From assembly GCA_905178155.1 (NCBI GenBank), contig CAJINV010000002.1, positions 62,001 through 126,000 on the forward strand: a DNA stretch of 64,000 bases, given 5' to 3'. Position 1 is the stretch's first letter; each line of letters opens with the position of its first letter. This DNA comes from Amoebophrya sp. A120. Its lineage: Eukaryota; Protista; Dinoflagellata. This document shows, piece by piece, positions 1,041 through 62,392 of the stretch. A program made the translations under genes and the position numbers. Below the pieces are notes generated by a model. It saw only the letters and a list, made by a program, of their open reading frames with translations. It searched no databases and was not told where the DNA came from.

Positions 1041-1307
1041 TATCAACTGCAAATATGTCTGGGCCTGGAAGAGTGCTAGACTTGTCATGCAGGTTTTTCA
1101 TGACCCATGAGGTCTGGTATGTAGGACATAGCATGACAGATTCTGTGATAGATCTATGATGCCTGTTCTGCATGAGAACAAACTGCGACGTCTCGCTTAG
1201 GTCACAAGTGCTTTTGGTAAATCAAGCAACACAGATTTTTACATGATTCAGATTTAGCATGACAAGTTCCAACCTTGTTCCAGACCCAGAGATATTTGCA
1301 ATGCATA
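1041..1307. mobile_element. TIR introner, family A
   Basis: TATCAACTGCAAATATGTCTGGG...CCCAGAGATATTTGCAATGCATA; perfect 5-bp DR GGGAA. Confidence 0.9.
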
Positions 1308-2594
1308 GGGAACTCTGGATCCCGCCATACTTCTTGTTTCCGCCGAAGCCCGAAGCAGAAGAGGTACCTGTTTGAAGTCAAATTTGACTTTATTCATGAT
1401 GAGTTTGTCATGCAGGAATGCTGCTTTTTTGAATCCTACTCAGATGTCCGAAAATAAAACGATTCCGGCTACAACGGCCTCTAGCAGCTTAGTACCGGTG
1501 TGGTGCGCTCCGGCTTGCGCAAAATTCGACGAGTGGCCATTGTACGAGTGGGAGGAAAAAGTGGTCTTCCCGTGCGGCACCATCGTCGCTGAAGGAATAT
1601 CGTTGTTGCAGGTATACTTATACTTGACTGTATCCGATTCCAGTTGATCGACAAGTTCGCACTTGTTGGTACAATGGAGCGCCAACTTCTTTTCGCTATG
1701 TGCAAAGTAGTACGGTGCTATCACAATCACAACAAGAACGGGCATAATATTGTAAACATTACATGATGAAAGAATGCTAAAATATTGCTTAAAGCGTATC
1801 GATCTGCGTCTCGTGCTTTGTGACTGTGTGATATAAAAGTTCTTCTTCTTTCCCAGAAAATAATAGATGCGGGAGAAAATACCGGAATTGGTGTGCAGCT
1901 CCTTTTGCTCGGGAATTCGTTGTAAAAGTGCAAAAATCTTCCACTCTCCCCACCTACAAGCCTTCTGTTGGCTAAGTAATTGGCTATGTATAATACCTAG
2001 TGCGTGACCTCCTGTGTAGCCACGGCGAAGAGCTTTGTCGGCAGCAGCGACGCACTTATTTGCATGTGCTATATCTGTAATGCTGTGCACCGAACCGCAG
2101 GCACGAGCATTGTGAGGCCGAACAAGCGGGCTTCTACACGCCATCACATGTTCACAATCTGCCTGCGCTGTAGCAACACACAGTACTACATTTGCATGGC
2201 AGAGCTTCAAATATTGTCATGCATGGTGCGTCACTATGCACTATGGTAATTGCACATGATGCACGGTCTGCCAAGCACTAGGGTAAATGTTGTACTTAGC
2301 ATGACAAATCTGTTCTACACTTTTCTATCTGGAACTGGAGAGGGTCGAAAATTTTTCACCGGCATAACTTGTCCAGATTCACTTTCGTTCCGGCTCCGAT
2401 CGGGCGATTGTTGTTCATCCCCACAGCTGCTTTATTGAATTTCCGGTTTAATGATGTTACAATCGCATTACAGATTTCTTTGTTTTGAGACGATCTGCTT
2501 GTGTTTCATGGAAATGAAGGAAATGACGTAGTTTTCGCATTACACATTTTTTTCTTGCAAATCACTTGAAGTTTGGAAATGTAATTGTCGAATA

Positions 2595-4770
2595 CCGTTT
2601 TCGGTAAAAGTAAGCATGTCACGGAGGTTCTCCACTTCCTCCTCCTCCTCTCGGGCCTTATGCGCTGGAAATACCTCACTTGGCCTGGATATCCTGTGCA
2701 AACACGTTCTCACCCCAGAGTCAGAATGGGGATCTCGCTACACACATCCAGAACTTTTGGTGGAGGATGTCACGCACTATGACAATTTTCTCTTTTTATT
2801 ATGGTGCAGTTTAGCAAGTACAGCCGCATCACATCAGCAAAGCCATCTACTTATATTTATCCTGTTTACAGCATTACAAATTCCAAAACAGCACGTTTGG
2901 AAATGCCTCTCATAGGAATGCGCATTAGTGAGGTTCCTGCACTTAGATGCAGATGCAAATCTGCATGACAGCGGTGGGTGTTTATGTACTAGCAACTCCG
3001 GGGTGCAAACGTTTTTACTCACGATACTGGATTTGAATGACAAACTTGGTTGGAGGGGCAGGTGGATGCTGCCTGTTGCTGGTGCAACGCCCCTCTTCAA
3101 TTTGATTCATTTGAAATGCTCTACGATCAGAACTATGACCTCTGTGGTGCATGTTGCGCGAAAGCGGAGCTTGCTCGTCGTGCAGAGATCCGATTCGCGT
3201 ATCCCATGCGTAGGCGGCTGCATGACATGACAATGTTTAGATGAAGCAGTCAAAACTACGGCTGTGGTATTTGTCAACTGGTGCACCCGTATCTGTGTAG
3301 TATTACTGCCTATTTGCAAATGCAATTATGCACGTGAGAGGTTGACAACTCTCCAGACCTAGATTGATATTTCGGGTTGGTACACTTTTTTGTACGCAGT
3401 CGCGACTGCCTCCTCTGCTGCCTTCAGCCCTGCTCTTTTCCGCCCTTATCCTGTAGAAGACTATCGCGCAGCTCCGTACGGCTCTTCTACCGATTCGACT
3501 ACATAAATTATTTTACTTTTTCCAAAATCAAATCAACATCACAACTTCAACTTTCCAGTCCATGACCTGCACACCTGCAAATGCGAACCATTTTAGTTTT
3601 TTCGGTTGAGCAGGAAATCCACTCCAAAGAAGTAAAGGGACGATAATCTATTTCCACAGGATACGTTCTCGATTTCTTTGATCTGAAAATCAAAGTTTTT
3701 CATTTCCAACTCCTTTTCCGCATGTTTTTGATTGAGAACCGCCATGACAAAGAAATGCAGCTAGCGTATTCTTTCGCTTGGCATTGTCTGCGGCACACGG
3801 ATTGTAATGCTGCTTGTGGTTCCAAAATTTGTCATGCTATTTGTGCTTATAGATCAGATGCGGCTTTGGGTTTTTTTTGCATCACAAATGAGGGGGAGGG
3901 GGACTTGTGCACTCTCATGAGCTCCGATTTCGGTTTATTCGCATCTGCAGAATGCCAAGTCCGATATGCTAGTAAAAATTTTGCGCACGATAACCGCGTC
4001 CCATTGGTTATTGAACGGTCAAGATCTAAACCGAGAAAGTCGATGAAATGATTTGTCATTCTTATGCATAATAAAATCGATATAAGTTGGTGTTGAGCCC
4101 TAAGTTTCTAAGAGGCGAACGAGAAATTTTGCAAGCATACACGTAAATCCAATTTTTCATGCTGTTTGGGGCAAAGTAGGAGACTACTTTCGCATCATTT
4201 ATCAAACCCCAAGAAACAAGCTCAAGTACAACCGGCCTCATGTGGCTGCTCTGCAATACAAGCTGTTTCCGCATCGTGTTTTATGCATGACAAATTCTTT
4301 CAACTCTGGTCGATTTCGATCCTATACGCCCCCATAGTCGTCGGTGGCCACCTTTTTCGCATTGAGAGCAGCTTCCAGCTCTTCATTCGCCTCGTGCAGT
4401 CGCGAAGCGGCTTTCAGCTTGGTCTTCCGGATTATCAAGTGCAAATATGTCTGGGTCTGGAAGCAGAAAACAAATATTTGTCATGCAGTTTCTGCAATTG
4501 GAATTACGAGGAGGCCTGGAAGGCACACAGAGCATGTTGACAGACTTTGCGCAGGCTTCATCTGTCTCCATGCCTTGCCTGCATGAGCAACGCCCTAGCT
4601 TGGAGACGAAAGTGGCTATCTGCTTTTGCATCCTAAGCAACACAGATTTATTTTCCCTGGTGTTCCAGATAATTCCGCATCACACACAGGTTTCTTGCAT
4701 CCTTCCAGACCCAGACACATTTGCATTTGATACGGATTTTCCCACTCGCCTCGTCCTTGCGGACGTGGCG
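2595..4770 (-). CDS. Fragments of a multi-exon coiled-coil protein (partial model)
   Basis: Removing 4433-4732 gives KRQRHVRKDEASGKI|RKTKLKAASRLHEANEELEAALNAKK; removing 3447-3663 gives IKEIEN|GKRAGLKAAEEAVATAYKK; removing 2690-3026 gives FKS|RPSEVFPAHKAREEEEEVENLRDML. Not all junctions resolved. Confidence 0.5.
2690..3026. mobile_element. TIR introner, family B
   Basis: TATCCTGTGCAAACACGTT...AACGTTTTTACTCACGATA; perfect DR CTGGA. Confidence 0.85.
3447..3663. mobile_element. TIR introner, degenerate
   Basis: TATCCTGTAGAA...TTCCACAGGATA; removal +5 nt gives a coiled-coil reading. Confidence 0.6.
4433..4732. mobile_element. TIR introner, family A
   Basis: ~29-bp TIR; perfect DR CGGAT; removal restores frame. 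Confidence 0.92.
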
Positions 4771-4942
4771 CTGCCGCTTCTATATGAAAAGAAAAGCACC
4801 ACTTTCTCCACTGCTAACCACGCATTACGAGCACGAATGCGTGTGGTCCGCAGAGAGGAAATGAGTTTTCAGGTCATACCCTCGGCGGTCCGGGTCCGAT
4901 CCGCGAGCGCTCCGTTGGTCTTCATCATACCAGGGGTCGTAC

Positions 4943-5220
4943 TATCCTGTGCGAAAACCCTCGCCCCCCACATGCTGTCATGCAAATCTTTCATCATCTG
5001 CGAGAGGCTCTTGAGCAGCTTTTCATGAGTGCCATTTTCTGGCAATTTGTCATGCTATTCCGACCGGGATAAGGCGACATCTTCGTGCTACTATCGCAGC
5101 GCAACCAGATAAGCACGAGAGCAGACCCCCCAATTCAAATTTGTCATGCGTGGCTCCCTGAGTTGCTACAACATTTGCGAAGGTGCATAGCAGGCGCGAG
5201 GAGCGATGTTGCACAGGATA
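4943..5220. mobile_element. TIR introner, family B-like
   Basis: TATCCTGTGC...GCACAGGATA perfect 10-bp ends; DR not conserved. Confidence 0.6.
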
Positions 5221-7055
5221 GTGGGTCGTGTCGAATCGAATCGAGGGTTTTTTGCCGTCTTGGTATGCAGTAGGCACTCCGGTGGTGGTGCGGGGGTACA
5301 ACAGTTCTTTCTACAAGAGAGACCTGGGAGAAACCAGTGAGAGAAAAAGCTCAGCAGACTAGAGCGAAAAGAAATATCTTATTGTGCGAACTTTTGATAC
5401 AGGGTAAGCGAACTTTTCTTATTCTTAGACTGAGTAAGGGATGTTGTAATTGTATTACTGAGTAAGCGATCTTTATTGTACGTATTCTTGAAACTTCAAT
5501 TCATGAGAAAGCGCCCCTTGCTGCTTTGAAAAAACAGAGTTTCTTGTTGGGAAAAGTGTGTGAAAATTCGCCGTTGGTTCTTCTTGGTCTTGCAAGCCAC
5601 GAGCAGGTGGAGATCATGAAAAAGAAATACGACGAAGTCCTCAAGTCAAATGGTTTTCAAGGTACTGGTACAACCACGAGTGAATCCAATATACAACTCG
5701 AACGAGCGAACGAGCAAAGCGAAACCCACGATCATATTGAGGACAGGAAACACTCACTTCGACGACGAAATACGCAATACAAGTTGTCGCTCTTAAAATA
5801 CAGATGCATATCATTTTTACTTTTTCCACGAACGACGAGCACGCACATAGATTTTTGTTACCCGCTCCACTCTTGGACGAATGTCGACTCTTGGACAAAT
5901 GTCGACTCAATTCCACGACCGTGACCTCTTATACCAAAAATCGCGAGGCGCCTATGACTCGGGACGACGCGTCGCGTTGACCGAAGAATACCGAACACGA
6001 GCAAAGCCGTGGACCCAATTTCTCTACTGGTTGACTGATTGGATTCTCACTGAATACTGTTGCCATTGCCGATCTGTTTCACAATTATTTCAGTTGCGGG
6101 ATTCAACACGAGACTCATGACGCAGTCTTTTTTCTCTTTCTCGCGGAGGAAACACATCAGAAAAGAAAAAGAAAAACTGCAACAACTCCGTGTTTATTTG
6201 TTCGCAATCACTCATGGGAGCGCGATGACACCTGTCGCGCTCTTCTTTCTCATAGCTAAACACCAGCCCCGCGCGAGCTGCTCGCCCCTTGCGCAGCTGC
6301 CGACCCGTACCACTTGACGAACTCGGTCGCGAGCCGGAGCAGCTCACGCGACCGCTCCCCCTTCTCCAGCTCCAGATCGAAAAACCAACGGTAGCGCGGG
6401 GCGCCGGTCGGCATCTTCCGGCTGTGAACAATCTCGCGGAACTGCTCCAGGCTGACCCGTATCACGGGAAACATATCATCCTCTAACGTGGTGTCAATTT
6501 TCTATGGAAGCGTCAGGACCGAAGTCAACAGAATCGAGCTAGTTTGTCATGCATAAAATCAATTGCCAGTCAGTGCCTCAGTCTCGAAGTGGCGCATGAC
6601 AAATTTCGGGAGCACCAAAATCCAGTCTGTCATGCCATTTGGGCAAAGAATACTGCCTCTGTAGTCAAGTTACTCTGGCGCAAAGTCCTCTTCTCCTAAA
6701 CAGGCTCGCAATCGGTCTCATTTGCCTGCTCCCCGACACAGGCGTTACGTGCCTTGCATTTTATGCATTACAAACAAGGTCCGAGCACGGGGACAGAGTC
6801 CCCGTGCGGCGACCTTCCGGCATTTGTCTGGGACGAGTTCGGGGGTTGTCGTGGTGGCGCACAGGGCGGGCAGGCCCCTGCAGCTCGGTGCCTCTGTGTG
6901 TCCTGCGCTCCCTGATCCGCGACAGACCTACGGACGGAGCCCCTCTGCTTGCCCACACTAGATCCGCTGGCCCACCGCGAACAGTGAAACAAAGAGAAAA
7001 GAAAGGAAGAAGCTGGCGCCGGGCCGGGTGCCGATAGCACCGGCGCCGCGTCTGT

Positions 7056-7775
7056 AGCTGGCCCCTAGGTCATGACGCGGGGNNNNNNNNNNNNNNNNNN
7101 NNNNNNNNNNNNNNNNNNNNNNNNNNNNNNNNNNNNNNNNNNNNNNNNNNNNNNNNNNNNNNNNNNNNNNNNNNNNNNNNNNNNNNNNNNNNNNNNNNNN
7201 NNNNNNNNNNNNNNNNNNNNNNNNNNNNNNNNNNNNNNNNNNNNNNNNNNNNNNNNNNNNNNNNNNNNNNNNNNNNNNNNNNNNNNNNNNNNNNNNNNNN
7301 NNNNNNNNNNNNNNNNNNNNNNNNNNNNNNNNNNNNNNNNNNNNNNNNNNNNNNNNNNNNNNNNNNNNNNNNNNNNNNNNNNNNNNNNNNNNNNNAAAGC
7401 TGGCCCCTAGGTCATGACGCGGGGACCGAGCCCCCGCGCTGCCCTAGGGCTTTTTCCCGTGGGCCGTGTGGTTAGTTTCCGGGAAAGAAGCGCCCGCAGC
7501 AGCTGGCCCCTAGGTCATGACGCGGGGACCGAGTCCCCGCGCTGACCTAGGGCTTTTGCCCCTGGGCCGTGCGGTTAGATAGTTTCCGGGAAACAAACGC
7601 CCAAAGCTGGCCCCTAGGTCATGACGCGGGGACCGAGTCCCCGCGCTGACCTAGGGCTTTCGCCCCTGGGCCGTGCGGTTAGTTTCCGGGAAACGCCCGA
7701 AGCTGGTCCCTAGGTCATGACGCGGGGACCGAGTCCCCGCGCTGACCTAGGGCTTTTGCCCCTGGGCCGTGCGAG
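7056..7775. repeat. ~100-bp GC-rich hairpin tandem repeat spanning an assembly gap
   Basis: Units start AGCTGGCCCCTAGGTCATGACGCGGGG at 7056, 7398, 7501, 7605 and 7701; N gap at 7083-7395. Confidence 0.92.
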
Positions 7776-7902
7776 AAGCCCGCCCACTCTGGATACTTGA
7801 GCCCGCTCTGGATATTTATTCGATTCGGATCCAGGTATGTTTTCTGCTCTGGATACTCAGGCTCTCTGCCCCCTGCTCTGAATGTGGTAGCCGAGGGCGC
7901 GC

Positions 7903-8250
7903 CGGGGGTTTGTCTGGGGTGTGTCGGGGGTGTCTTCCGGGGGTGTGAGACGGGGATCCCTGGGGTGTGACGGGGGGGTGTGTCGGGGGTGTGTCTGGGG
8001 TGTGTCTGGGGTGTGTCCGGGGTGTGTTCGGGGTGTGTGTTGCAACTTGCAAATCACGATGCTACGCAGCCACTTTGCATACCCCAGAACACACCCCAAA
8101 GCTTCAGCAGTTCTTGTCGGGGGGGGTGTGTCGGGGGTCTGTCTGGGGTGTGTCCGGGGTGTGTTCGGGGTGTGGCCTGCAAATTACAAATCACGATGCT
8201 ACGGACCTACTTTCCATACCCCAGAACACACCCAAAAGCTTCAAAAGTTC
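7903..8250 (+). repeat. G-rich ~11-bp minisatellite (GGGGTGTGTCN) within a duplicated ~135-bp unit
   Basis: Many GGGG-TGTGTC runs; the tail TGCAA.TT.CAAATCACGATGCTACG...CATACCCCAGAACAC occurs twice (~8042 and ~8178). Confidence 0.88.
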
Positions 8251-8264
8251 TGGTTTGCTGCAGT

Positions 8265-11008
8265 TTAAATAGTAATGTTTCGGCTTTGTCGATTTCGGTC
8301 CTGAAGACACTCCCATACCTTGTCGTCGGGGTGCAGTGGCTCCCGTCCTGCCCCGAGCCTGCTCGAGGCATTCTTGTAGCAGTCTCGCAGCCTTTCTCCG
8401 CTTTGGCTTTCGCCGCTCGTGTTGTATCAACTGGAAATATGCCTGGGCCTGGAAGCCAGCCTGTGAAGATGCTGGGTTGCTGTTGCATTGCAGTATTGCA
8501 GTTCGTCATGCAATACAGATCGTCGCGTGCAAGATAAACAGCACCGTCTCACGACGCTTCCAGGCCCAGACATATCCACACTGGATACTTTCACCACCAT
8601 GTAGATCGGCCCGCCCTGGCGTCGGAGCCGCGGGAGGTGATTCGCTGGAACGCCGCTCCTGGCGCGCACCGCGTCGAAGACGTCCGCGGCGCCGGGTAAG
8701 GCCGAGAAGACGTCCTCCCATGTGTGTACCTGCGAGACGAAGACGCGGTGAAAAATCCCGCGACACGAAGACAGCAAAACCAATATCCAGGCAGAAAATC
8801 CCTCCGCCCCATAGTTAAAATGGGGCCGTTGCTCATACTGTGTTCATGCCCATATCCAAAACAAGAATTGTGTGCGTCAGTCTGTCCTCGTTCTGTAGCA
8901 CCAAGCACTCGCGGTGGCCGCAAGCTACCTGCAGGTCGGGAGCTCGGGGACAGTGCAATACCCCGCTAGCAATATTATAGCACGGCAAAGATCTACTTGC
9001 GTGGGCAAAAATGCAGGACAAATTGTCAAGAGTTGGTGGCAGTACATGAGGGGACTGGGTTTATTTTCTTCACGATAGTCGCCGGACTACTTCGCGAATT
9101 TCCTTGCTCGGTTCGGACATAGAAGGTGTGCTCTTGAAAACAAGGCCGCCGTATGCATTCGCAAGTATGTCGGAGTCCGCTTCATGATTGCGAGCACGTG
9201 TCTAGTTATGCTTGGCTACTAGATGCACGCTCCGCAAACGTGCTGCTTGTTTGTCATGCACAGCTTCGTTTGTCATGCACAGCTTCAGCCTCTTTTCCAT
9301 GCACGTCTTGTACTTGTTGTTCTTCTACAGTATAGTAGATTTTGTCGCACGCGACGACGTTGCAGACCCCGACATTTTTGCAGCTCATACCTACTTGTTC
9401 TAATACCGACGTGCTCGTACCTGCTCGCACCTGCTCTAATACCGACCTTTTTTGCAAATCTTGCCGACCTGCTCGTAGCTGGTTTTGGTGTTGGCTGGAC
9501 GGTCCCGAAGTAGTGGCACTTGATGTCCCGAGCAGCGTGTTATTCTGCTGGTGGGGATGGAAACTGGGAGCATCGTGTGGTTGACCATGAGCATTCATCC
9601 CATCTACCTCCTCCTGCTCTTCAACTGGACTCTGGCGCAAGCTTTGCTTGTTTCTCCTCTGGGCGGAGGCGGACGGTTGCTGGCCGCCTTGGTGCGGAAA
9701 ATTGTTCTGAGCGTTGGTTTATCAAATGTAAAAGTGTGATGTGGGTCTGGAAGAATGCAACTTGTGATGCTGCATTTCGATTCCAGAAAAATCTGTATTG
9801 GATAGTACCAAAAGGAATGTAATTTTTGCTACGCGGAGAGGGCATTGGTCATGCGGAGAAGGGATCAAGAAGCTCTCAAAAAATCTGTGATGCTAGGGTA
9901 TGCATCACAGACATCAGGGCTCATGCAAAACGTGCATGCCAAGTGTCAGAATCTTCCAGACCCAGACATTTTTACAGTTGATATGTTTATGTCGGTTTCA
10001 TCCCCGAAAACCGCCAGGTCACGGTCGTCGTCGTCGTCCTGGTGACTTTATCCTGTGCAAAAGTATCGTACTCGTAGTAATTGCACTTATGCATTACAAA
10101 TCTTTTTCCTATTAAGGTCAATCAGCATTACAAATTCCATTTCTCATGCTGAGGAAATTTGTCATGCAATTTATACTAGTACGATACTTTTGCAATGCAT
10201 AGATTTTCCTGTCCAGCGACGCCCCCGGTAGTGTAGTTGCCGGAGCCACCAATACCCTGCTGGGATGATGTGCTAGCTTCTTCTACTACAAGAGTTGCCC
10301 CCACCATCCTCGAAGCCTCGCCTGCCGATGTATTCTGCTGCAGGTACTGTCTTTCTTGGTCTCCCATGCTGGTGTTAGCAGGGTTCAGTCCGTCCTGGTG
10401 CGAACCGCCACCCTGCAGATGCTCCTGTTGGTCGAAGTTTTCCGCAATGACAAGTGGCTGTTGATGGCCCATCTGCTCCTGCGGGGGAAGCTGTGTCGTA
10501 TCTTGCTGTGTCCTGGTGCTGTTCTGTTGCTGAGCCTGGTTCATGTTGCTGTTCTGCACGTCCTGTTGGAACTCGGTTTCGTCTCGCACCGGACTGTATG
10601 CATTGCAAATTCAAATATGTCTTGCTCTGGACCAAGACTACAACTTGTGATGCGTCCTGCAGATCGCACAGGAATTTGTCTTGCACGGGTAGCACAAGAA
10701 ACCCGCTTTTGGTCATGCTGAAGCGGTACTTATTTGTCATGCGAGATATGCATTGCAAAGCCCTTGCGACCCCTTTGATGCTCTGTCCAGCATTACATTC
10801 CTCGCCGGTCATCCAAAATCTGCATGACAGACTCCCGCACTTATCCAGACCCAGAAATATTTGCATTTGGTAGACTGTAGCTGCTGTCCATTACGTCGCT
10901 CGGATTACCCATGAAGGGAGCCGCCGAGTTCGCCGTGTGCAGCCCCTGCGGAGCCACCTCTTCATCGTAGTGCGAATTTTCCTGGCTTTGGTCCTGATTG
11001 ATGTCCAT
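8265..11008 (-). CDS. Multi-exon Q/N-rich protein with possible ubiquitin-like C-terminal region
   Basis: ATG at 11008 (MDINQDQ). Removing six elements (10597-10872, 10049-10201, 9720-9983, 9152-9389, 8784-9077, 8425-8587), each +5 nt, joins ORFs 10841-11182, 10176-10589, 9254-9640 and 8427-8783 in frame (e.g. SSYS|PVRDETEFQQ, GQEN|HQDDDDD) to TAA at 8265-8267. Confidence 0.75.
8425..8587. mobile_element. TIR introner, family A (short)
   Basis: TATCAACTGGAAATATGCCTGGGCCTGGAAG...CTTCCAGGCCCAGACATATCCACACTGGATA; DR decayed. Confidence 0.8.
8784..9077. mobile_element. TIR introner, family D (degenerate)
   Basis: TATCCAGGCAGAAAATCCCTCCGCCCCAT...ATGAGGGG...TTTTCTTCACGATA; +5 removal in frame. 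Confidence 0.65.
9152..9389. mobile_element. TIR introner, family A (degenerate)
   Basis: TATGCATTCGCAAGTATGTCGGAGTC...GACCCCGACATTTTTGCAGCTCATA; +5 removal in frame. Confidence 0.7.
9720..9983. mobile_element. TIR introner, family A (reverse orientation)
   Basis: DR TGGTT/TGTTT; interior is the reverse-complement homologue of 1041-1307; +5 removal in frame. Confidence 0.88.
10049..10201. mobile_element. TIR introner, family C
   Basis: TATCCTGTGCAAAAGTATCGTAC...GTACGATACTTTTGCAATGCATA; DR GACTT/GATTT. Confidence 0.88.
10597..10872. mobile_element. TIR introner, family A
   Basis: Perfect DR GACTG; removal joins two Q-rich ORFs. Confidence 0.92.
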
Positions 11009-11473
11009 TTGCACTGTCAAAAGGAAATCTGCCTTCGCCTTTAGTGTCGCAGCAAATTTGTCATGCAAATGCAGCACAACAGGACATCTATATTTTTGAC
11101 CTTGAGTAGAGGTCGTTACGACTCGCGGTGCGCTTCTTTTATCCAATTTGAACAACGGAATCTGATGCAACAACGAAGACATATTTCACTTTGGTACGAC
11201 TCACACCTAATCCGTCGCTGCGATCCACATGACTGTCGACGGACCTTTTTTGTTCATAAATCGGATGTTCGTCTACTTATTTGATCAGCACACCCACACT
11301 CTAGCAAGTGAGCGGGTACTAATTGTCGACAAAAAATAATGCGCGATAGACAACACAACTTGTACCAGTAATTCGTACACGTACTTGTAGTTGGTTACTA
11401 TAGTCAACGCACGAGGTGTAACTAAATCCAGTCTCTAATGGAGATCGAGATGAGATGGTAGAGAAACAGATTT

Positions 11474-18929: not shown

Positions 18930-19201
18930 TATCAAATGCAACTATGTAGTCTGGGTCTGGAAGAATGGAGGAGTTTGTCATGCAGATTTTGCATCACCCA
19001 TGAAGTCTGGCACGTGGGACCCAGCATGACAGATTCTATGAGATGACCTTTATCATGCCTATCGTGCATGAGAAACTGCCTCTGAACTTGTCCGAAAGTG
19101 GACATTTGTTGGTAATCATGCAACACAAATTTTTGGCACGATCCAGATTCAGCATGACAAGTTTCATTCTTTCAAGACCCAGACATTTTTGCAATCAAAT
19201 A
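18930..19201. mobile_element. TIR introner, family A
   Basis: Close full-length homologue of 1041-1307 and 47035-47302; DR not conserved. Confidence 0.85.
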
Positions 19202-49656: not shown

Positions 49657-50684
49657 ATATGTTCCTGGCTGCATCATCATCTTCGATTCGCGACCGTGTG
49701 GTAGTTCCTCGACGTTGTCCTGCTGCAGTAGCTGCTTTATTTGTAGAGAACCACGACGCACCACAAGCACGACTACAGGGTTCATCTCGCCAGCAGTGCT
49801 TCATCTGCGCGGATGAGGAGGGTCGCACACCATGACGACGACCTAATTTTGGTGCAGAGAAATGCTGCTATCGCTATGCAGGAGTGGTACAAGAGAAGCA
49901 CGGGTTGTGCAACATCATCACTCATCGAAGGTATTTCTCAAGCCAACAGCGCACACAAAAAATACGTCTCAACCCCGGCGCCACGATTTTCGCTTCTTCG
50001 TAAAAAGGCCCTCTGGTGTTGCTTTCGTTTTTGTCTGACAATAGTGTCAGTGTGCCTGCTTACGTGGATATCCCCTCGTCCGGCGGTGGCGACCTTCGTT
50101 TTGTCAGGGAAATTGAATATTAAATGTTGCTTAGAAGGGGGGGGGGTTGCAAAGCAAGAACATTACCATCGTCGATCATGATGACAAGCGGCTCCCACCT
50201 TACCGTTTCTACTACAACACAAAAAAAATACCTGATTGTTCGACTGTTTGAAAAATCTACACTTCCGGCTGCTGCAATCGTTGTTTAGGTTTATGTCTAC
50301 TGGGGGTCGAGGACAGAATTGGTTTTTTTATCGTGCAGTAGAGTCCCGGCAGGTCAAAACAGGGTGGTCCACTCGGATTACAAAAATTGTTTTATAAAGT
50401 AGTTTTGTGAATGATTTTGCTGTAGTGCTGTTTTTACTCTTATTTGCTTCTCGGCACCTCTCGGCGGCGCTGCTGCCCACGACTGCAGAAAGATCGTATG
50501 TATAATTGTCATCTATTTCCGTTGCAGCTGTTCTGTTTGTGTTCGTGTTCAAATTTTGTCTCAGGGGAAGAGGACAATTACTGATGCGTAGTTGTTCCGA
50601 AGTGGGTGTGTTGCTTGTGGCCAAAATTGGTCTTCCCGCAGAGTTATTGCTGCTCCCACTTTTTATTCACTCCTGTTGATAATA

Positions 50685-53600: not shown

Positions 53601-54040
53601 TTGGTCTCCTGCTCCAGAACCATGGGAGGTGTCCTATGCTTTGCAACAGTATCGTTTGTTCGTGCTAGTATACAAAATTGCATCACATCAAATTTTCTCA
53701 AAAGGAAAACTGGAATTCATAATTCTGACACACCTAAAAAAGGGATGTTTGTCATGCTTGATAGCAAAATTACGACGAGTGCGATACTTTATTTGCACGG
53801 GATATACCAGGAGATATTACGATGTTGGTTCTTGGCTGCGTGCCGAATTGCATCACCATTGACGTGATGCCGTGATTTAGTGCTTCCCCCGTGTTGCCCC
53901 ATCGCTCGGCTTTCTTATCGTATTTCTGCTGCAGGTGCCGGTATTCCCGCACCCGCTTATTGGACGTCTGTGCGATTTCATCCTGCTCTCGTACGATATT
54001 TTGTCCTATGCTGTGCAAAAGTGTTTTCAGCACTTGCTGC
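50685..54040 (-). CDS. Multi-exon S/T/N/G-rich low-complexity protein with scattered FG/F motifs (weakly nucleoporin-like)
   Basis: ORFs 53770-54033, 53040-53438, 51985-52170, 51314-51967, 50873-51289 and 50685-50873 join in frame after removing elements 53635-53804, 52468-53052, 52181-52439, 51874-52143, 50797-50964 (+5 nt) and a putative GT-AG intron 51236-51400. Confidence 0.65.
50797..50964. mobile_element. TIR introner, family C
   Basis: TATCCTGTGCAGAAGTATCG...CGATGCTTCTGCAGTGAATA; in-frame removal. Confidence 0.78.
51874..52143. mobile_element. TIR introner, family A
   Basis: Perfect DR TGATT. Confidence 0.9.
52181..52439. mobile_element. TIR introner, family A
   Basis: Near-perfect ~30-bp TIR; DR CTTCT/CCTCC. 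Confidence 0.9.
52468..53052. mobile_element. TIR introner, family E, outer element of a nested pair
   Basis: TATGGAGTTCTCAAACG...CGTTTCAGAGTTCCATA; DR GGCCG/GACCG; in-frame removal. Confidence 0.85.
52488..52797. mobile_element. TIR element, family D, nested inside 52468-53052
   Basis: Reverse-orientation homologue of 23567-23877; DR CGTGA/CGTGT; splits the outer element's left TIR. Confidence 0.88.
53635..53804. mobile_element. TIR introner, family C
   Basis: TATGCTTTGCAACAGTATCG...CGATACTTTATTTGCACGGGATA; in-frame removal. Confidence 0.75.
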
Positions 54041-54194
54041 TAGAACTGCGATTTTCGTTGAAGAAGCTGTAGCAGGAGCGGTACTTCTCATGTAAGCGTC
54101 ATGTTCTTACGTTGTCCAGAGCCAGACCGCCTCTTGCTGTATTGCAATATTTTTTGCATGAAATCGTGACCACGCAGTTCATGCCTGTGCGATA

Positions 54195-54572
54195 GATACT
54201 TTTACGCCGGCTATCTTCCTCTTCCGCCCTCTCGCGTTCCTGCCGACGCTCCAGCTCTTGCCGGCGGTGGGTAGCCACCTCCCGGGCCCAGACGTCCCTT
54301 TTGATTTCCTCTTGGAGCGCCAAATCGGCGGCCTCCGCGCTTCTCTGCAGGTACGCGGATTGTCGCATAGCGGCCGCGTCGCGGACATTGCGTGCACGCC
54401 GCTGCTCCGTTTCGCACTGCACCTGCAGCGTTGCCTCGTAGAGGCGTGGATCTTTTCTCGTATACCCTTCCACTCCGAGCCGGGGCACGTACACGGGCCC
54501 AAGACCCATGCTGCGCGCGCGGCCCGGTGCTGGGGGAGCTGGGTCGTCAGGGGGATCGGATTCAGAGGACAT
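54195..54572 (-). CDS. Charged helical protein exon, possibly the 5' exon of the 50685-54040 gene
   Basis: ORF MSSESDPPDD...RRQELERRQERERAEEEDSRRK has protein-like composition; I could not resolve its junction to the next exon. Confidence 0.45.
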
Positions 54573-57459
54573 GTTTCGATACGGAAGGTTCTTTTGCCGA
54601 AGTAGGTATTAAGCACGGCTGTCTATATGATAGTTCGAAATAGAGGCGGCCGCCGCCACGTCCTTCTCCCTAGTTTGACATGGACAGCAGTGTAAAACTC
54701 GCCTTGGTTGTTTGTTAGCAAAACGAGAGGTTTTCTTTTCCTCTGTATTGGGTTATTTCGCGTGCGCATGGGCGTGACCACGTCCCCTTCTCTCCGATCG
54801 GACAGTGGTCGCACGAAATCCCAGAAATATATGTCGTACGTACGAAGAGGATATCTCAGCAACTTCGCTCGGCTTCTCCGTCCTCTCAGAAATGCAATTG
54901 CTCGGCTTCATATAAAAGTCCCGATCACTCCATGGTGCTCTTGCTAATGATAGACACATAGTGTCGACGACGAATCTGAATATCAGGGACCGAGTGTCGC
55001 ACGATGCGGCGAAGGCGAAGACTAGTTCGAAGCAGAGTAGTTGTCTCGCAACCGATGCGCAACAAGAACAACTAGAACTACGCACCATTTTGGCGGACTC
55101 CACATTGGGGACACCCTGCGTGCCCGACCATGATGTGTATGAGGTGAAAGTACGTAGCTCAGACGCAGGCTGCGGCAACTTCTTTTCGGCCCCGCCGCGC
55201 CAGTGCAGAATAGTGACACCACTTTAATACGCTTGGGACAGTGGCGGGTCTCCGCGACAATAAGTGGCACACCGGCGGGCCCACAACATGAAGTCACGCC
55301 CAAGGGCTCTTTGCGACACGATCATGACAGAGGCGCAGGCGAGGGTCGGCACGGGGGACACGGCCGGCAAGAGCGCGCGCGGCGTGCGCCCACGCACACA
55401 CTGATGGGCCCCGCGGCCACCTCGTCGCGCGGGTTCCGGCGCTAAGGAGGCAGCGGGCGTGGCGTGCCACCACCAGAGCCCTGTGACAAGAGTCGCGCGC
55501 GCCTCTCGCAGCTTCTTCCACCTTGTTTGCCCCGCTTCGGGTGGTCCGGCGTGAGAGGCGGTGTAGCCCAGCTCTAAGTTGAGCTGTGCCGCGGCCGTTG
55601 ACAGCGTGAGGAAAGTATCTCCATCATGCGCCAACCAACGCAGAAAGTTCGCGCGGCTGTGGCTGCGGCTCTTCCGTATGCAAAGAAGCCCCGTCGCGCC
55701 ACCTAGGGGCTGCGCTGCCACGCGCCTGCGCGCGCCCGCTGGCGCGCAAGATGAACGGGAGGCGCACGTCGCCGCCCCTGATTATATGTCCTGCTTGCTG
55801 GAAACGCACACTCTACGCATGAAGAGGATCTCGCGGAAAGTTCACTCAGCTTTTTCACCTCGCAAAAACGCAGCTACTCGGCTTCATATCTAAGTCCTTA
55901 TCACTCCACGCCGGTCTTGCGAATGCAGTTGTAGACAAGAAGGAAACTACTTTTTCATGAACAAAATTCGAGTATTCTGCACGAAGGTCTTGCAATAGAA
56001 CACACTTTTTTTTATCTTTATGAACAAACTTGCTTTGTTGTCAACTACTCGTCGCGGGCACTGTACAACTAGAGCTCCATGCTGTACTTACTTTGGTTCA
56101 AGTACAGCAACTATCCTCATTAGTGTGATCCTCAATATTTTCATCATCGTTTATTACAGTTTTGTTGTCTGCTGGTGGTCGAAAGCCAGCATATTGACCA
56201 GCCTTGTCATCTTCCTTGTTATCTAGCCTTTTTCGTCGCACCCACCCTGAGGAAGCACCAGTTTGATTCTTGTACTATTGGTGCGTGATCTTAATCAAGA
56301 CATCCGGGCGAAACAGTGGATTTATCACACGAGTCGGCGCGAAGATGACGAAAAGGGGAGGTCTCTAAATTGCATTTATTTCGTGTTGATGCTCTTTTTC
56401 TCCAGTTCAAAGACGTAGTGTCACGACTGTCTAGGTTCGCGATAACGAGTTTCACATCATGATTGCTGATGCGACAAAGCCGTGTCCTCTAGGTACTACC
56501 TTCCAGTTGTTCATTTTGACGTTACTCCAGGTACTTCCAGTTTCCGGTGAGGGGCTGGGTGACAACGAAAATCTGCAACTCCTGTTCTTCGGCCGTTTCG
56601 CGGTCCACCTCATCTCCGTCACTACAGTGCGGCGCCGCCATATGGAGGGTTCATCAGGATCGAACCGGACAAAGCTGAAATAGTGATTATGCTTAGCCAT
56701 GCATAAAACCGGTAACCGCTGTTTCCCAGTTTCTAGGCAGCGCATGACAAATATTGGCAGTACCTAAATCCAGTTTGTCATGCTGTTTCGCCGAAGAAAA
56801 CATCTTTTTCCATGGTCCTACTGCAGCAGCTTTCTCTCCATCTCTGAACAAGCTTACAACCGGGCTCACTTCCCTGCTTTCCAGTACATGCACGTCATGC
56901 CTCCTCAATTTCTGCATAAGTAATGAAATATTTCAACTTTGCCGATTTGGGTCCTGACGCTCCCATACGCCAGTAGGTCTGCGATTGGCATGTCGCTCGT
57001 CGGGTCCAACTGCTCGCCATTGCAAAAATATATCGTGCTGAAAAAGCTTCTGCAATAACCCGAGCAAAAAAAATTTTCAGGCTGCGAAGGAGAACTACAA
57101 CTTCTCAAGTTTTTCTTACCGCATGACATCAATCTCAAACACATTATATAAACATTTTTGGCTCGGGTGAAGATATTTCTTTTTCACACGATAGAAAACA
57201 GCAGCTTGGTTCCCCCAGCAGACGACCGTATCAGACTGAAAAGACCCCGAGCTGTGCAATCGATCAAAGGTGGTCTCTACAAGGTGAAAAAAACACTCAA
57301 GATGAAATACCGGATACCGTATAGAAAGGAAATATTCCTTCACAGCGGCAGTGCGCATGACAGTTCGTTTCGAACAATGCGGCGAATATGCATATTTTCT
57401 CCGTACTCCGGGGTGTACTACGGGTAGAATCAACAAAATTGATTGACACATAACTGATT

Positions 57460-59778
57460 TCAAGATAACCTTCTGACGTCGTGCACGCACCTGGTACTTT
57501 TGCAAACTTGCATATTCTGGAAGCAGTCACGAATGCAGTGTCGGAGGTAGTACGGGTCCATGAGGTCGAACTTGGCAAGGAGGGGGTCATGCCTCGGAAA
57601 CCGCTTTCGGAGCTCCTCTTTGACGAAGTATTGGTCGATCAGCTGTATCCCCTGCAAAAGCATCGCGGTCGTACTGTGACTAAAAAGGTAAAGATAAAGT
57701 AACTGCAATACTGCATGACAAATCCTCTCGTCACGACATAAACATCATTCATACATAGAGTGAACAGATCAGTATTTCAAAATCCATTTCTCCTTCTGCG
57801 TGTTAGTGTTACGATGATTTTACAATGCATAGGCCGCTTGGCGGTCTCTAGGACGTGGCTCGCATGTCGCACCAGGACTTGTTTTCCCCAAGCGCGTGAG
57901 TCCCACTGGACTTCTCGATGTGCCCACACGTCGGCGACGTGTAGGAAAAAATCTCGCTCTGACGCGTCGCAGTCAAGCTCGACAACCACCTCGCCGTCTT
58001 GCAGGCTAATGCCGTCGAAGGCCTCCAGAACGCTCTTCTTCTGTAATGTAGTGTTGCTCAGGAGAGGAGTGACGAAAAAACTTCATAATCTACAAATAGA
58101 ATGCGCATGACAGATTCCCACGATGGCAACCAGCATGAAATAACAATAAAAGCGATAATGCTCTTTTACAATTATATTTCGAAGGTACTTGCTGCGCAGA
58201 ACACTCCGACACCAAATAATCCAAGACATTTCAATACAAGCTGTGAGTACCGAAAATCCGGTGGCAAACTCGAAATATGGCCCGTCCCCCGTTGAGAGCA
58301 GGTGTATGCATTGCAAATATCCCTGGGTCTGGAAGAATGCAAAGTCTATTCTATCCACACGACTTTTGCATGACACATGAGAAGGCTAGCATGCAGGCTC
58401 TAACGTCACAGGTTTTCGTGCAAATATACCTTATTGCTGCCTATCAGTTACTATTTCCATCTCGCATGCCAACCCCCCGCTCTCTGTAGCAAGAATTTTT
58501 CACCGACTTTCCCTGTTCACGGATGACACACATATTTCGAGTGATCTGAAATGCTGCGCATCACAAGTTTACGCCTTTATAGATTGATCCAGACAACATG
58601 TTTGCACTGAATAAAGCTGCGAGCGCGACGCTCAGGTATTATATCTGTGAGACGGCCAGATGCCCTATCTTCATCCCACCTCGCGTGGTCCGCATCACGA
58701 TGTTCGCGTTCCGCCGTTGCGCCCGATATGTCTCTGAACCTGGGACTGATCCAGTCGAGCAGGGCCTGAAGCTCGGCAGCGGTGTACTTCATCCGGAGAC
58801 AGCGGTCACCTTCTGCCCTGATGCACCTCGCGGCCAACTCCTCGTTCGAAGTCGGGCCCTGCAAAAATTTCACGGGATATGCGTCGCGATAGGAAAGAGT
58901 GTGCAGAAACCTCGTCGTGAAGAAGAGGTCGAAATGAAACCCCTGGCGGACGAAGCCTACTACTTGGTCGGGCTGCGATGAGCGGAAGCCCTTCACTCGC
59001 AACTCCCCGCAAAACTCTGGGGTTATTAAACACCGCCGCAAAACTTCATTTGCAGTATCTGGCAGGCCGTCGAAGTGCATCCGGACTACGGGAAAGTCCA
59101 CTCTGCTACACCCGGTCTCGTCCGACGGGTCGTCCGACTGGTACCACTTAGACTCGAGCAGCTCTTCTCGTTGGATGAAGTGCTCGTACTCCTGGCCGGT
59201 CCTGTAGACGAAACTGTTGAAAGCTTCGCAGTATGCAATACAAGTATGTCTGGGACTCCAACTTTGGAAAAATCAGTAGGTACTTACTTGTCATGCTCAG
59301 CCGGGCCGATGGGCAACTTGAATTTCGGATGCACAGCTGTTGAGAATCAAATTTTGATGACCGGCTCATGAATCGCTATTGGTAAGCAAGTAGTATCAAG
59401 AACTCCTGTTTCATCAGCCCCAGACACAATTGCAGTTGATACACAGGCATCCTTGACGGTCGGTTCGTCTGCTGTAAGCAGCTTGCCAGGCGCCCCGAAA
59501 TCCGGATGAAAGTTGAAGAGCAACTCGTCGCCGGCATTGGTGAACCGCACGGACGGGGGGCCGCGCACCTCAGGTGGCGGGGGCGGAACATCGGACTGCG
59601 GCTCAAATGCGGCGGACGTCGATGTTCCAGGGACGGGAAAAGACCGTTTCATCGCCATATGATCTGCATCAGCCGCCATGGCCGCTAGTTCCGGGCATTG
59701 CTCGCCATCGACCAGCCTGCCGTGGCACGGCACCTCCAATAACAGCTGCTTGCGCATGGATGAGGTTTCCTGGGTCAC
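57460..59778 (-). CDS. Multi-exon protein of unknown function (partial model)
   Basis: ORFs 59347-59778, 58577-59101 and 58083-58376 join in frame after removing 59232-59441 and 58305-58613 (+5 nt): KDAC|EAFNSFVYRTGQEYEHFIQREELLESKWY...VDFPVVR. Further protein-like exons lie in 57777-57989 and 57460-57708. Confidence 0.55.
58305..58613. mobile_element. TIR introner, family A
   Basis: TATGCATTGCAAATATCCCTGGGTCTGG...CCAGACAACATGTTTGCACTGAATA; in-frame removal. Confidence 0.8.
59232..59441. mobile_element. TIR introner, family A
   Basis: DR CGCAG/CACAG; in-frame removal. Confidence 0.85.
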
Positions 59779-60625
59779 GTTGCCTGACGGTGCTGCAGTG
59801 AAGTGTCGCCAAAATGATCAAATCCGAGCAAATCTGCATTACTACACGTGTCATGCACCGGTCGGAAGATGTAATGACTTTCGCAGAATCTTAAAAATCA
59901 CACTCACATGCTCTCCCTGACCATCGAGCGTCATGCTTACACTTAGCAGCTTCGTCTTCCGGGTAGAGTTGAAGTTGAATTACTGCAACGACAAATAGCA
60001 ATAAGTACCGTCCCATTTGATAGGTTTTTTCGCATGGCTGTAGTTCGTCAGGAGACCGCTGTTCATTCCTTGGTCATCCACCTCCACGAAAGGCTGTTGC
60101 ACCGCTGGGCAGGTGTTCACGTCGTGCATGGGGAAGGTAATCCGGTCATGGATATGCCAACAAAAGGTCACAACGCCAAAGAAGAAGAGGTTCTATTTCG
60201 GTTCTATTTTTTACAAAAGCTGAAGATGGTAGTGATTGAATTTCGTTTTTCTTTGTGACCCGGTGGTGATTTCATGAAAATGCTGTCGGAAGGCACTGTG
60301 ATCTTTTCCTGTTATCATATCGTGGTCGCTCCTGACTGTCATCGGGGGTCATTCCTGCCATCGGCACATCCTCACTCAGTGTCGAAGCCGGTCCTGTTGA
60401 AATGATTTTTGTTTTGTTTATTCTTCGATGTCGTGCGAAAAGATCGTCTTACTCGTGGTGTAGATTGCCCCGATGCCACAGAGGCCACGATGAAAAAATT
60501 TGCAAAATAATGTCATGCTGACATTCCTTACACTACCGTAAGTTCACACTTATACTACTCGAAGACGAGTGCCATGTAGCTACACGGGTATGATTACAAT
60601 ATAGAAAATCAATTTCAAAATCAAA

Positions 60626-62392
60626 TTATCTTCTAATACTAAAAGATGAAGCGAGCGATGGGTTTTCCAAATGCGGAACGTGGCGGAAAATCCTCTGAAG
60701 CTGCGTCGCAAGGGCTTCCTCCTGAGGCAAGTTGATGAGCTCTTGCAGTAAATCCCCATCTTCGTGGAGGTGTTTCTGCACTTGCATCCGCTTTGCGTCG
60801 ACGTTTGCCTGGGCCTCCTTGAGCTGTTTCTCCGCAGCATCCAGATCCTCGTTGGCCGCCGCCACCTTGTGCAAAGCTTGCAGTCGTAGGGCCATCATCT
60901 TCTCGTCCTGTTCCTTCTGCTGTCCGTCCGATTCCGCTGGTTCATTGTCACGAGCGAAGAATACAAGTCGATCACGTTTTTCCTTTTTGTTGGTGGTGCC
61001 ATTCAAATTCTGCTCCACGCGAAGACGCTGGATTGGCACCGGTTCTTGGCGCAGGTGGCGTAGAAAGTCCCTGGGGTCGGGACCGAATTTTATGGGATGT
61101 TCGGGTATCCACGACACTGAACGCTCCGCAAGTGGTCGGCGGATGTTGTCTACTTCTTGTGGGAGAAGCGTTTCGCCCGGAAAAGCGTTTTGCTCGAAGC
61201 TGTTTTGTTCTCTGAAGACGTCCTGAACAGCGACATCAGCGGACGTCGGTGGCGATGATAAACCCCCGTCGTTGACCATTATCCTGTGTAGAAACGTCCC
61301 TATCCCGGACTTGCGATGCAAAATCTCATTACATGGGGAAACTACGTCGGTGCGCAATTATCCAGTCCTGACTTTTGCGAACTGACTTTGCAATGCGTCT
61401 TTGATTGCCAAGCAGCAACAAACCCCAGATCGAAACTTGTCATGCCGGATTCGCAAAAGTGCTGCGCTAGTGTAGCTCCTGCACCGATCCCATCTAGTAC
61501 CTGACCACGGATAGTACCTTTTTACACTGGATATAATCAACCTGAACTGCGTCTTCCGGTTCATTGTACAAGTTGGTTCGCTCCTGGTCGAGCACGCGCA
61601 CGAACTCGTCCCAGTTAGTGAACGGAGCAGGTTCTCGTTCGGACAACACTGGTAGTTTCGCTGTGTGATGATCTCCATCGGAGGACGACGACCCGCGTGC
61701 AGTAGAGGATGCTGATGCGTCGCGCTGCTGCTGGCTGTGGCTTTGGCTTCGGCTTCGAAGAATCAAAGGAAGAATAAATTTGTTGAAGTCGGCTTCCCGC
61801 AGGGCGGCGATGGTTGTCTGGCCGGTTCTTGTAACCTCCCTTCTTTGGGCAGAGCCGTTTGCAGCCTGCCGGCGCGTTTGTTGTATTCGTAAACACGCCA
61901 TAGTCTGTTGTATTCGTAAATCCAGCATCCCGTTGTAGTTCTGTTGCTCTTGTTGTTCGTCCCGGTCGGCCGGCTCATTTTCGTCAGAAAAAAGTGCGTT
62001 CATCCTATCACGCTCCGTTTCATCACTGGTAGCCGAATTCTGCTCCGCGTGCAGGTGATGTATCTGTTCCGCAAGCGGCATCGCGTAGGTGCGATTCAGC
62101 ATCTCGATTTCCTTTCTGTCGAGCCAGTATGGGTTGCAAATATTTCTGGGTCTCCTGGAAGAGTGCAAGACTTGCCATGCAGGTTTTGCATGACCCATGG
62201 CACCAGTGACGCATGACAAAGTCCCTTTCCATTGGGGCAGAAGTAGACCCCTTTTGGTAATCATGCAACACAGTACAAGATTTTTGCATCACGAGCCGAA
62301 CTTAGCATGAAAGCCTGCAAGGTTCCATCTCCAGACACAGACACATTGGCAATGCATAGCCGCGACGTGAGATGCTGTACGCTAGACGACAT
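60626..62392 (-). CDS. Three-exon protein with internal repeat and C-terminal coiled coil
   Basis: ATG at 62392 (MSSSVQHLTSR|LDRKEIEML). Removing elements 62128-62358 and 61280-61533 (+5 nt) joins ORFs 61494-62264 and 60626-61357 (VDY|NDGG). Confidence 0.7.
61280..61533. mobile_element. TIR introner, family B
   Basis: TATCCTGTGTAGAAACG...CTTTTTACACTGGATA; in-frame removal. Confidence 0.78.
62128..62358. mobile_element. TIR introner, family A
   Basis: DR GCCAG/GCCGC; in-frame removal. Confidence 0.85.

What the first reader, a model, noticed from the sequence alone, without database searches (positions are those of the whole stretch)
1041..62358. Pervasive transposon-like introns with TAT..ATA inverted ends and 5-bp duplications, removed by an 'element + 5 nt' rule without GT-AG
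Seen: about 65 elements of 110-340 bp (one 585, one 1026) in at least five TIR families that share only a TAT-N7-AAA-type terminus. Twelve have perfect but mutually different 5-bp flanking repeats (GGGAA, CTGGA, CGGAT, GACTG, ATCTG, ATTTG, GCTTG, ATATT, CCTCT, TCCGG, TCCAA, TGATT), which is the pattern of target-site duplications. At about 50 junctions translated by hand, deleting the element plus 5 nt gives an open frame, and there is no consistent GT/AG at the boundaries. Established (from memory, unverified here): non-canonical IR/DR introners with TAT-N7-AAA ends were reported in Amoebophrya sp. A120, with the removal mechanism unknown. Inference: non-autonomous TIR transposons are tolerated in exons because an unidentified machinery recognises the ends and removes them precisely.
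Basis: partly seen in the sequence, partly recalled or inferred. Interest (0 to 1): 0.92.

Follow-up and report, generated by a model that had tools for sequence, protein, structure and literature searches.

The report
Transposon introns with one fixed cut
Genes of the marine parasite Amoebophrya are riddled with small transposon-like inserts that are cut out of the RNA at one fixed position relative to their ends, ignoring the usual GT-AG signals, most likely by a loosened form of the normal splicing machine.

Summary
The window encodes an Amoebophrya sp. A120 protein, and these are the introner elements published in 2021 (PMC7789003). I count about 75, against 0 in shuffles. The target duplication is strictly 5 bp (223 of 286 perfect in related contigs). 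RNA contigs skip element+5 nt; a DNA-like run keeps the elements.

What I did not find in print is that the cut is fixed, not variable as published. On the transcript the intron reads N-TAT…ATA-NNNN: 1 nt outside the repeat at the 5′ end, 4 nt at the 3′ end. All 19 RNA junctions at elements allow this and 8 allow nothing else; 13 more sites agree. U+2, A+3 and A−7 are invariant (32 of 32), while the bases facing them drift (p≈1e-5), which a bare hairpin does not predict.

Best reading (0.6): a relaxed U2 spliceosome uses NUA as donor and A−7 as a fixed-distance branch point, so an insertion in either orientation restores the exon. Lariats are untested and no transposase was found. This scan earlier noted similar repeat-bounded non-canonical introns in other genomes.

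The parts
18524..18760 (-). TIR element; intron 18520-18761, unambiguous 1/4 cut
   Evidence: RNA joint in X3 and X6
18930..19201 (-). TIR element (family A, 8-nt spacer at one end); intron 18926-19202, unambiguous
   Evidence: 5′ TAT placed by eye
19254..19578 (-). degenerate TIR element, intron allows 1/4
19624..19809 (-). canonical GT-AG intron without TIR (fixes transcript direction; A at -7)
19848..20034 (-). TIR element, intron allows 1/4
20076..20245 (-). degenerate TIR element (TAC…ACA), unambiguous 1/4
20928..21126 (-). canonical GT-AG intron without TIR (A at -7)
21173..21408 (-). TIR element next to a 17-nt micro-exon (21410-21426)
   Evidence: table 5c
21431..21638 (-). TIR element with poorly pairing arms, unambiguous 1/4
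21708..21951 (-). TIR element, allows 1/4
22007..22288 (-). TIR element (family B), allows 1/4
22778..23023 (-). TIR element, joint read from a loose contig end
   Evidence: table 7
23157..23399 (-). TIR element (3′ end ATG), unambiguous 1/4
23567..23877 (-). TIR element (family C), perfect duplication ATTTG
23919..24944 (-). 1026-bp TIR element holding tandem repeats, allows 1/4
25033..25285 (-). TIR element, unambiguous 1/4
26579..26842 (-). TIR element whose 1/4 intron happens to read GT…AG
   Evidence: table 5c
26868..27183 (-). TIR element next to a 15-nt micro-exon (26848-26862)
   Evidence: table 5c
39157..39328 (-). TIR element; one of four whose 1/4 removal leaves exactly the 454 nt in the RNA contig
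39507..39801 (-). TIR element (5′ TAC)
39871..40119 (-). TIR element (family B)
40343..40630 (-). TIR element (family B)
49365..49656 (-). TIR element (3′ end ATC), unambiguous 1/4; DNA-like run keeps it
50797..50964 (-). TIR element (family D)
53635..53804 (-). TIR element (family D); with the next one leaves exactly 197 nt
54007..54213 (-). TIR element (5′ TAG)
56641..56967 (-). TIR element, perfect duplication CGCCA
57031..57193 (-). TIR element, allows 1/4
57229..57514 (-). TIR element, unambiguous 1/4
57646..57831 (-). TIR element; element+5 matches annotated protein P0121
58305..58613 (-). TIR element; element+5 matches P0121
59232..59441 (-). TIR element; element+5 matches P0121
61280..61533 (-). 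TIR element; only the 1/4 cut gives P0121
62128..62358 (-). TIR element; element+5 matches P0121
1041..1307 (.). family A element, perfect duplication GGGAA (DNA evidence only)
2690..3026 (.). family B element, duplication CTGGA (DNA only)
4433..4732 (.). family A element, duplication CGGAT (DNA only)
10597..10872 (.). family A element, duplication GACTG; an RNA piece stops at 10591
11844..12147 (.). element, duplication ATCTG (DNA only)
29748..30012 (.). family A element, duplication GCTTG (DNA only)
31166..31420 (.). family A element, duplication ATATT (DNA only)
34344..34608 (.). family A element, duplication CCTCT; the 1/4 cut would read GT…AG
   Evidence: prediction
45239..45539 (.). family B element, duplication TCCGG (DNA only)
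47035..47302 (.). family A element, duplication TCCAA (DNA only)
51874..52143 (.). family A element, duplication TGATT; an RNA piece stops at 51868
727..52797 (.). further elements from the DNA scan, not RNA-tested: 727-1004 (doubtful), 3447-3663, 4943-5220, 8425-8587, 9152-9389, 9720-9983, 10049-10201, 11015-11196, 11504-11778, 14125-14312, 15525-15860, 16428-16741, 27550-27825, 30864-31116, 32280-32567, 33254-33401, 33950-34251, 34912-35105, 35242-35499, 35533-35877, 36451-36739, 42146-42424, 42519-42761, 42855-43129, 43794-43952 (doubtful), 44588-44867, 44980-45157, 45848-46174, 46622-46959, 52181-52439, 52488-52797
56525..62123 (-). host gene for the 1006-aa A120 protein P0121, interrupted by eight elements
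17770..25513 (-). host gene covered by one 2144-nt RNA contig, with at least 14 element introns and 2 canonical introns

Best explanation
These are MITE-like DNA transposons with TAT…ATA ends and 5-bp target duplications that are removed from the RNA in one fixed register (N-TAT…ATA-NNNN), most likely by a relaxed U2-type spliceosome. Shown: removal of element+5 from RNA but not from DNA, the 1/4 register, insertion in both orientations, and invariant U+2, A+3 and A−7 with free terminal dinucleotides. Inferred: the 5′ end NUA serves as donor with +1 free; the A of the 3′ repeat, 7 nt from the junction, is the branch point; and the 3′ cut is set by distance, not by AG. Because the inverted repeat supplies both signals whichever way it lands, and 1+4 equals the duplication length, any insertion would restore the exon exactly. 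Inferred more weakly: repeat pairing, or a repeat-binding protein, brings the ends together in place of U1, which was not found in A120.
For: 19 of 19 RNA joints at elements skip element+5 and allow 1/4, 8 uniquely. Contig arithmetic fits exactly for six more (454=454, 197=197) and is consistent for two. The annotated protein fits at 8 of 8, uniquely at 2. Among 32 anchored introns: +2 T 32, +3 A 32, −7 A 32, but +4 T 29, −6 T 31, −5 A 27. Among 320 family-matched elements with repeat positions 1-3 unscored, third-base variants fall 10:0 in the 5′ arm and first/second-base variants 2:14 in the 3′ arm (p=1.2e-5; related contigs alone 6:0 and 2:11, p=0.001). Two of the three terminal pairs tolerate a mismatch and were not seen with the wobble, against pairing alone. 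11 of 31 spliced elements have predicted pairing ≤0.11 at repeat position 3. All nine leading non-canonical types in A120 are NT-NN (Table S4 of PMC7789003). A120 keeps U2, U4, U5, U6 and 83 of 89 spliceosomal proteins. Precedent: Giardia introns have a VTATGTT donor and an invariant branch-to-3′ distance (PMC6679479). 3 of 4 canonical introns here also have A at −7.
Against: Splicing without G+1 and without AG departs from the textbook second step (own knowledge). There is no enrichment of AG in the duplication: 18 of 230. The bases before A−7 (T/C/G, then G/C) are a poor U2 branch consensus. Arms stay more complementary than shuffled partners even in old elements, which fits a hairpin-guided route or mere ancestry. 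One canonical intron (51233-51400) lacks A−7. 3 of 320 3′ ends lack it, and 8 multi-base end variants were left out of the test. Gene direction in related contigs comes from a codon model that called 30 of 34 window elements correctly, with training overlap. The stretch 20247-20925 is unresolved: my guessed introns give 2224 nt against 2144, and one two-exon solution worked out by hand would begin TTC, breaking the +3 A rule.
Confidence: 0.6

Rival explanations
1. A dedicated, spliceosome-independent nuclease/ligase, as proposed for Euglena nonconventional introns, reads the terminal hairpin or motif, cuts 1 and 4 nt outside it and releases a circle.
For: Fixed spacers from an inverted motif define the Euglena code N3CDG…CH'G N5-6|R (PMC12501133). 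Terminal dinucleotides are free here. Arms are more complementary than shuffled partners. U1 was not found in A120.
Against: Conservation is strand-asymmetric and falls on spliceosome-like positions. About a third of spliced elements have little predicted terminal pairing, and two folded examples are no more stable than shuffles (z 0.83 and 0.23). GT-AG introns with these repeats exist: 26579 here, and 15% of A120 canonical introns. The Euglena paper cites the rarity of such hybrids as its sign of a separate system.
Confidence: 0.27
2. The elements are excised from DNA (transposase-like, ciliate-style) in part of the life cycle, and the RNA reflects rearranged DNA.
For: The ends look like transposon ends, and the DNA-like run is a single contig set that can drop rare variants.
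Against: Run X1 has no depth at the four RNA joints and its contigs run through the elements (37822-41573, 47241-49630, 49601-52204, 52769-56783). The register follows transcript direction while elements lie both ways (44:32, 24:22, 18:16). One RNA contig keeps the stretch 22382-22753 while already joined at 22773, as a partly spliced molecule would.
Confidence: 0.04
3. Cut positions are variable, as published, and the fixed register is an artefact of a small sample or of contig assembly.
For: Fig. 3 and S23 legends of PMC7789003 call splice sites variable relative to the hairpin. Only 15 of 626 and 15 of 30 joint rows were shown, both RNA runs come from one study, and contigs hide minor isoforms.
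Against: The register was written down before the second lay and held at all 15 new element joints, 6 of them unambiguous. The duplication itself creates apparent sliding of 0-6 nt.
Confidence: 0.07

Closest known systems
Introner elements of Amoebophrya sp. A120 (Farhat et al. 2021, PMC7789003; sections 10, 11, 12, 16, 36 and supplement passages read)
   Same: Same organism and same elements: TAT-N7-AAA inverted repeats, short direct repeats, RNA-supported non-canonical introns.
   Different: The paper gives direct repeats of 3-5 nt, 'variable' splice sites and no clear dinucleotide signature. Here the duplication is strictly 5 bp, the register is fixed at 1/4 and U+2/A+3/A−7 are invariant.
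Polarella glacialis introner class 12, NNAGG frame (Roy et al., 10.1101/2020.10.14.339549; passages read)
   Same: 5-nt duplication; donor made of the last duplication base plus the first element base; acceptor at bases 3-4 of the downstream copy, the same 1/4 geometry.
   Different: Class 12 needs G and AG in the target and works in one orientation. Here any target and both orientations are used.
Giardia lamblia / Trichomonas spliceosomal introns (PMC6679479; passages read)
   Same: Donor VTATGTT with a loose first base; invariant branch-point to 3′ distance; ends brought together by pairing in long introns.
   Different: Those keep AG and a full branch consensus, are few, and are not described there as transposon-derived.
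Euglena nonconventional introns (PMC12501133; passages and discussion read)
   Same: Inverted motif at a fixed spacing from both cuts, free terminal dinucleotides, direct repeats, MITE-like origin proposed.
   Different: Different motif and spacers (3 and 5-6 against 1 and 4), a purine needed at the next exon start, and circular excision products reported.
Fritillaria borealis non-canonical introns (10.1101/2025.08.15.670264 passages; review PMC11282704 passages)
   Same: Transposon-derived non-GT/AG introns removed by an adapted U2 spliceosome.
   Different: Preferred AG-AC/AG-AT ends; U1 retained; divergent U2AF paralogues.

Membership tests
Amoebophrya A120 introner elements | Terminal inverted repeat starting TAT-N7-AAA | tested here: met
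Amoebophrya A120 introner elements | 3-5 nt direct repeat at the exon/intron border | tested here: met
   5 bp only
Amoebophrya A120 introner elements | Repeated families, removed as RNA-supported introns, in A120 | tested here: met
MITE / non-autonomous TIR transposon | TIRs, fixed-length target duplication, short and non-coding, many copies in both orientations | tested here: met
   length+5 falls evenly in the three frames (104/80/102)
MITE / non-autonomous TIR transposon | Cognate autonomous element with a transposase | tested here: inconclusive
   No transposase domain in 122 long ORFs from 485 kb of related contigs or in 28 window ORFs; no whole genome held
MITE / non-autonomous TIR transposon | Empty orthologous site in DNA | tested here: inconclusive
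   No locus orthologous to the window. At protein level only element+5 removal restores the conserved CCT-beta sequence in L071
U2-type spliceosomal intron | GT (or GC) donor | tested here: not met
   G at +1 in 9 of 32; T at +2 in 32 of 32
U2-type spliceosomal intron | AG acceptor | tested here: not met
   2 of 32
U2-type spliceosomal intron | Branch adenosine, lariat intermediate, U2/U6 pairing | not testable with these tools
   Invariant A at −7 is a candidate only; no raw reads cover the window
U12-type intron | RTATCCT donor, own branch consensus, U11/U12 present (consensus recalled) | tested here: not met
   C at +5 in 19 and at +6 in 17 of 32 only; U11, U12, U4atac, U6atac reported absent
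Euglena nonconventional intron | N3CDG…CH'G N5-6|R code | tested here: not met
   Motif TAT/ATA with spacers 1 and 4
Polarella introner class 12 (NNAGG frame) | Target NNAGG required | tested here: not met
   GT-AG outcome in 9 of 230 related elements and 1 of 32 anchored here

The most novel reading that the evidence does not exclude
Amoebophrya A120 runs a spliceosome that has dropped G+1, the AG acceptor and possibly U1, and reads a transposon end as its splice code: the same TAT repeat is the donor at one end and the branch point at the other, with a 7-nt ruler matched to the 5-bp duplication. Any insertion, anywhere and either way round, becomes a perfect intron, which would explain tens of thousands of new introns.
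Probability: 0.45. Interest if true: 0.85.

Novelty: new variant of a known kind. Interest (0 to 1): 0.64.

Why it matters
About 65% of A120's 66,565 RNA-supported introns are non-canonical and were published with unknown borders and mechanism. A single positional rule fixes those borders and lets genes be annotated from DNA alone. It turns the open question into direct tests: a branch at A−7, or circles. If the spliceosome does it, it shows how far its two best-conserved signals can be relaxed, and how a transposon can become harmless at any coding position.

Tried and rejected
No whole genome is held and the related contigs could not be searched for U6, so snRNA pairing and a genome-wide transposase search were not done. 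Rfam found nothing in the window. The repeat end is absent from viral contigs. No transposase domain was found in 122 + 28 ORFs. The run search listed no holder on record as RNA; X3 and X6 are 'RNA?' by the tool's guess and are treated as RNA because they skip introns and lack cover in some bins.

Rows dropped before counting: 10 X1-only joints between repeat copies and 44348>44505 (inside a repeat, 22-nt side), 9970>14124 (between repeat copies). For four joints (18925, 19249, 56635, 57224) the automatic end call was weak or off and the TAT was placed by eye.

Rejected: nearby GT-AG as the true borders (possible for 1 of 32); target preference for AG|G; a U12-type reading; a composite A+D mobile unit at 9720-10201 (spacers unrelated, each element has its own duplication). 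Reconstruction of 20247-20925 failed by 80 nt. The figures of PMC7789003 (logos, snRNA alignments) are images and could not be seen; they may show part of this pattern.
Full report
Observation. An exact scan for TAT…ATA pairs with flanking repeats found 10 at 5 bp and none at 2-4 or 6-9 bp. A relaxed scan gave 67 elements against 0 in three shuffles; with RNA-anchored ones that it missed the total is 75, about 32% of the window. The 1026-bp element is 23919-24944; a 585-bp one was not found.

Identity. A window exon is 100% identical to a protein annotated in Amoebophrya sp. A120. Farhat et al. 2021 (PMC7789003; sections 10, 11, 12, 16, 36 and supplement passages read) describe 29,850 introner elements in A120 with TAT-N7-AAA repeats and 3-5 nt direct repeats. 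They call splice sites variable relative to the hairpin, found no U1, no minor spliceosome and no transposase in A120, and leave the mechanism open. The elements are therefore known.

Related DNA. A metagenome scan with the commonest end gave 139 stretches; 137 loci (485 kb) were analysed. A CCT-beta gene there is 99% identical to the A120 protein, and only removal of element+5 restores its conserved sequence. Of 286 elements in four families, 223 have a perfect 5-bp duplication, against at most 1 at 4, 6, 7 or 8 bp. Families lie in both orientations relative to inferred genes (44:32, 24:22, 18:16, 11:9, 7:6, 5:6). These are the marks of non-autonomous inverted-repeat transposons. No transposase domain was found in 122 long ORFs.

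RNA. Two stretches (37700-57600 and 7800-27750) were laid on public runs. The DNA-like run X1 passes through the elements and has no depth at the RNA joints. After dropping repeat-to-repeat rows (11 of 15 shown, 1 of 15) and splitting two joints at micro-exons, 21 joints remained: 2 canonical GT-AG introns, which set the minus strand as sense, and 19 at elements. All 19 skip element+5. On the transcript all allow N-TAT…ATA-NNNN, and 8 allow only that. I noted this register after the first lay; it held at all 15 element joints of the second. Contig lengths fit exactly for six more elements (454 and 197 nt) and are consistent for two. The annotated protein P0121 agrees at 8 of 8 elements, uniquely at 2. 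Spliced products give long open frames. One stretch, 20247-20925, could not be resolved (80 nt too long).

Which bases matter. Across 32 anchored introns the terminal dinucleotides are free (27 types, 1 GT-AG), but +2 T, +3 A and −7 A are invariant while +4, −6 and −5 vary (29, 31 and 27 of 32). In 320 family-matched elements, scored without the first three repeat bases and oriented by a codon model, single changes at the third base occur 10 times in the 5′ arm and never in the 3′ arm; changes at the first or second base occur 2 and 14 times (p=1.2e-5; related contigs alone p=0.001; 8 multi-base variants left out). A hairpin alone would favour G-U wobbles at −7 and +3, which were not seen, over the mismatches at +4 and −6, which were. 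Eleven of 31 spliced elements have almost no predicted pairing at the third repeat position, although arms remain more complementary than shuffled partners. All nine leading non-canonical types in the A120 table have T at +2, as the register predicts. AG is not enriched in the duplication (18 of 230).

Mechanism. Shown: RNA-level removal, the 1/4 register, orientation independence and the three invariant bases. Inferred: a U2-type spliceosome with a NUA donor and a branch A fixed 7 nt from the 3′ cut. Giardia offers a precedent for a loose first base (VTATGTT) and an invariant branch distance (PMC6679479, passages); Polarella class 12 has the same geometry but needs NNAGG (10.1101/2020.10.14.339549, passages). 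The main rival is a Euglena-like dedicated nuclease/ligase (PMC12501133, passages and discussion). Lariat or circle detection separates the two. These introns fail the GT and AG tests for U2-type membership; the claim is that they are likely handled like U2 introns.

Novelty. Paper searches and passages of PMC12130899, PMC9860276, PMC11282704, PMC11453091, PMC12787238, PMC12621601, 10.1101/2025.08.15.670264 and 10.1101/2024.09.05.611473 showed no statement of a fixed register or of A−7 for Amoebophrya. The library lacks most subscription papers, and the figures of the 2021 paper could not be seen. Earlier notes of this scan report repeat-bounded non-canonical introns in other genomes and none in this one; they were not tested here. 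Verdict: known elements, a cut rule not found in print, mechanism inferred.

Noticed in passing
L001-L139; also window 9984-10048 and 31117-31165: Neighbouring elements are spaced in a narrow band: 53 of 174 gaps are 40-80 nt, none under 20, only 11 at 150-300, whatever the families. This suggests insertion targeted next to existing elements or to linker-like DNA (linker preference of introners recalled from Huff et al. 2016, not read).
   Followed up: partly
window, inside elements: The motif GCAT(G/C/T)ACA occurs 33 times in 5,737 nt of element introns, 2 times in 385 nt of canonical introns and 0 times in 7,672 nt of exons; in families A-C it faces inward from both ends. Candidate shared transposase-binding site.
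   Followed up: partly
window 21410-21426, 26848-26862, 22754-22773: Micro-exons of 17, 15 and about 20 nt between adjacent introns.
   Followed up: yes
window 20247-20925: Exons here must total about 117 nt; no solution that follows the rule was found. Possible exception, including a GC-type donor candidate at 20596.
   Followed up: partly
window 7396-7773, 7903-8251, 24153-24231, 24626-24819, 37400-37860: Tandem repeats (96, 11/137, 13 and 92-bp units), two of them inside the 1026-bp element; a repeat beside the second N gap carries the same TGTCATGC motif.
   Followed up: no
window 47035-47240 and 52181-52210: Raw RNA reads of run X9, which does not cover the window's exons, match family A ends with other flanks, so that culture carries the family at other sites.
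   Followed up: no
L018:632-1465, L036:3862-4492, L055:2779-3926: Longer elements (631-1148 bp), two with perfect 5-bp duplications; possibly nested copies.
   Followed up: no
window 11889-14123 and other exons: None of 28 window ORFs matches Pfam; host proteins are Q/G-rich and apparently lineage-specific.
   Followed up: no
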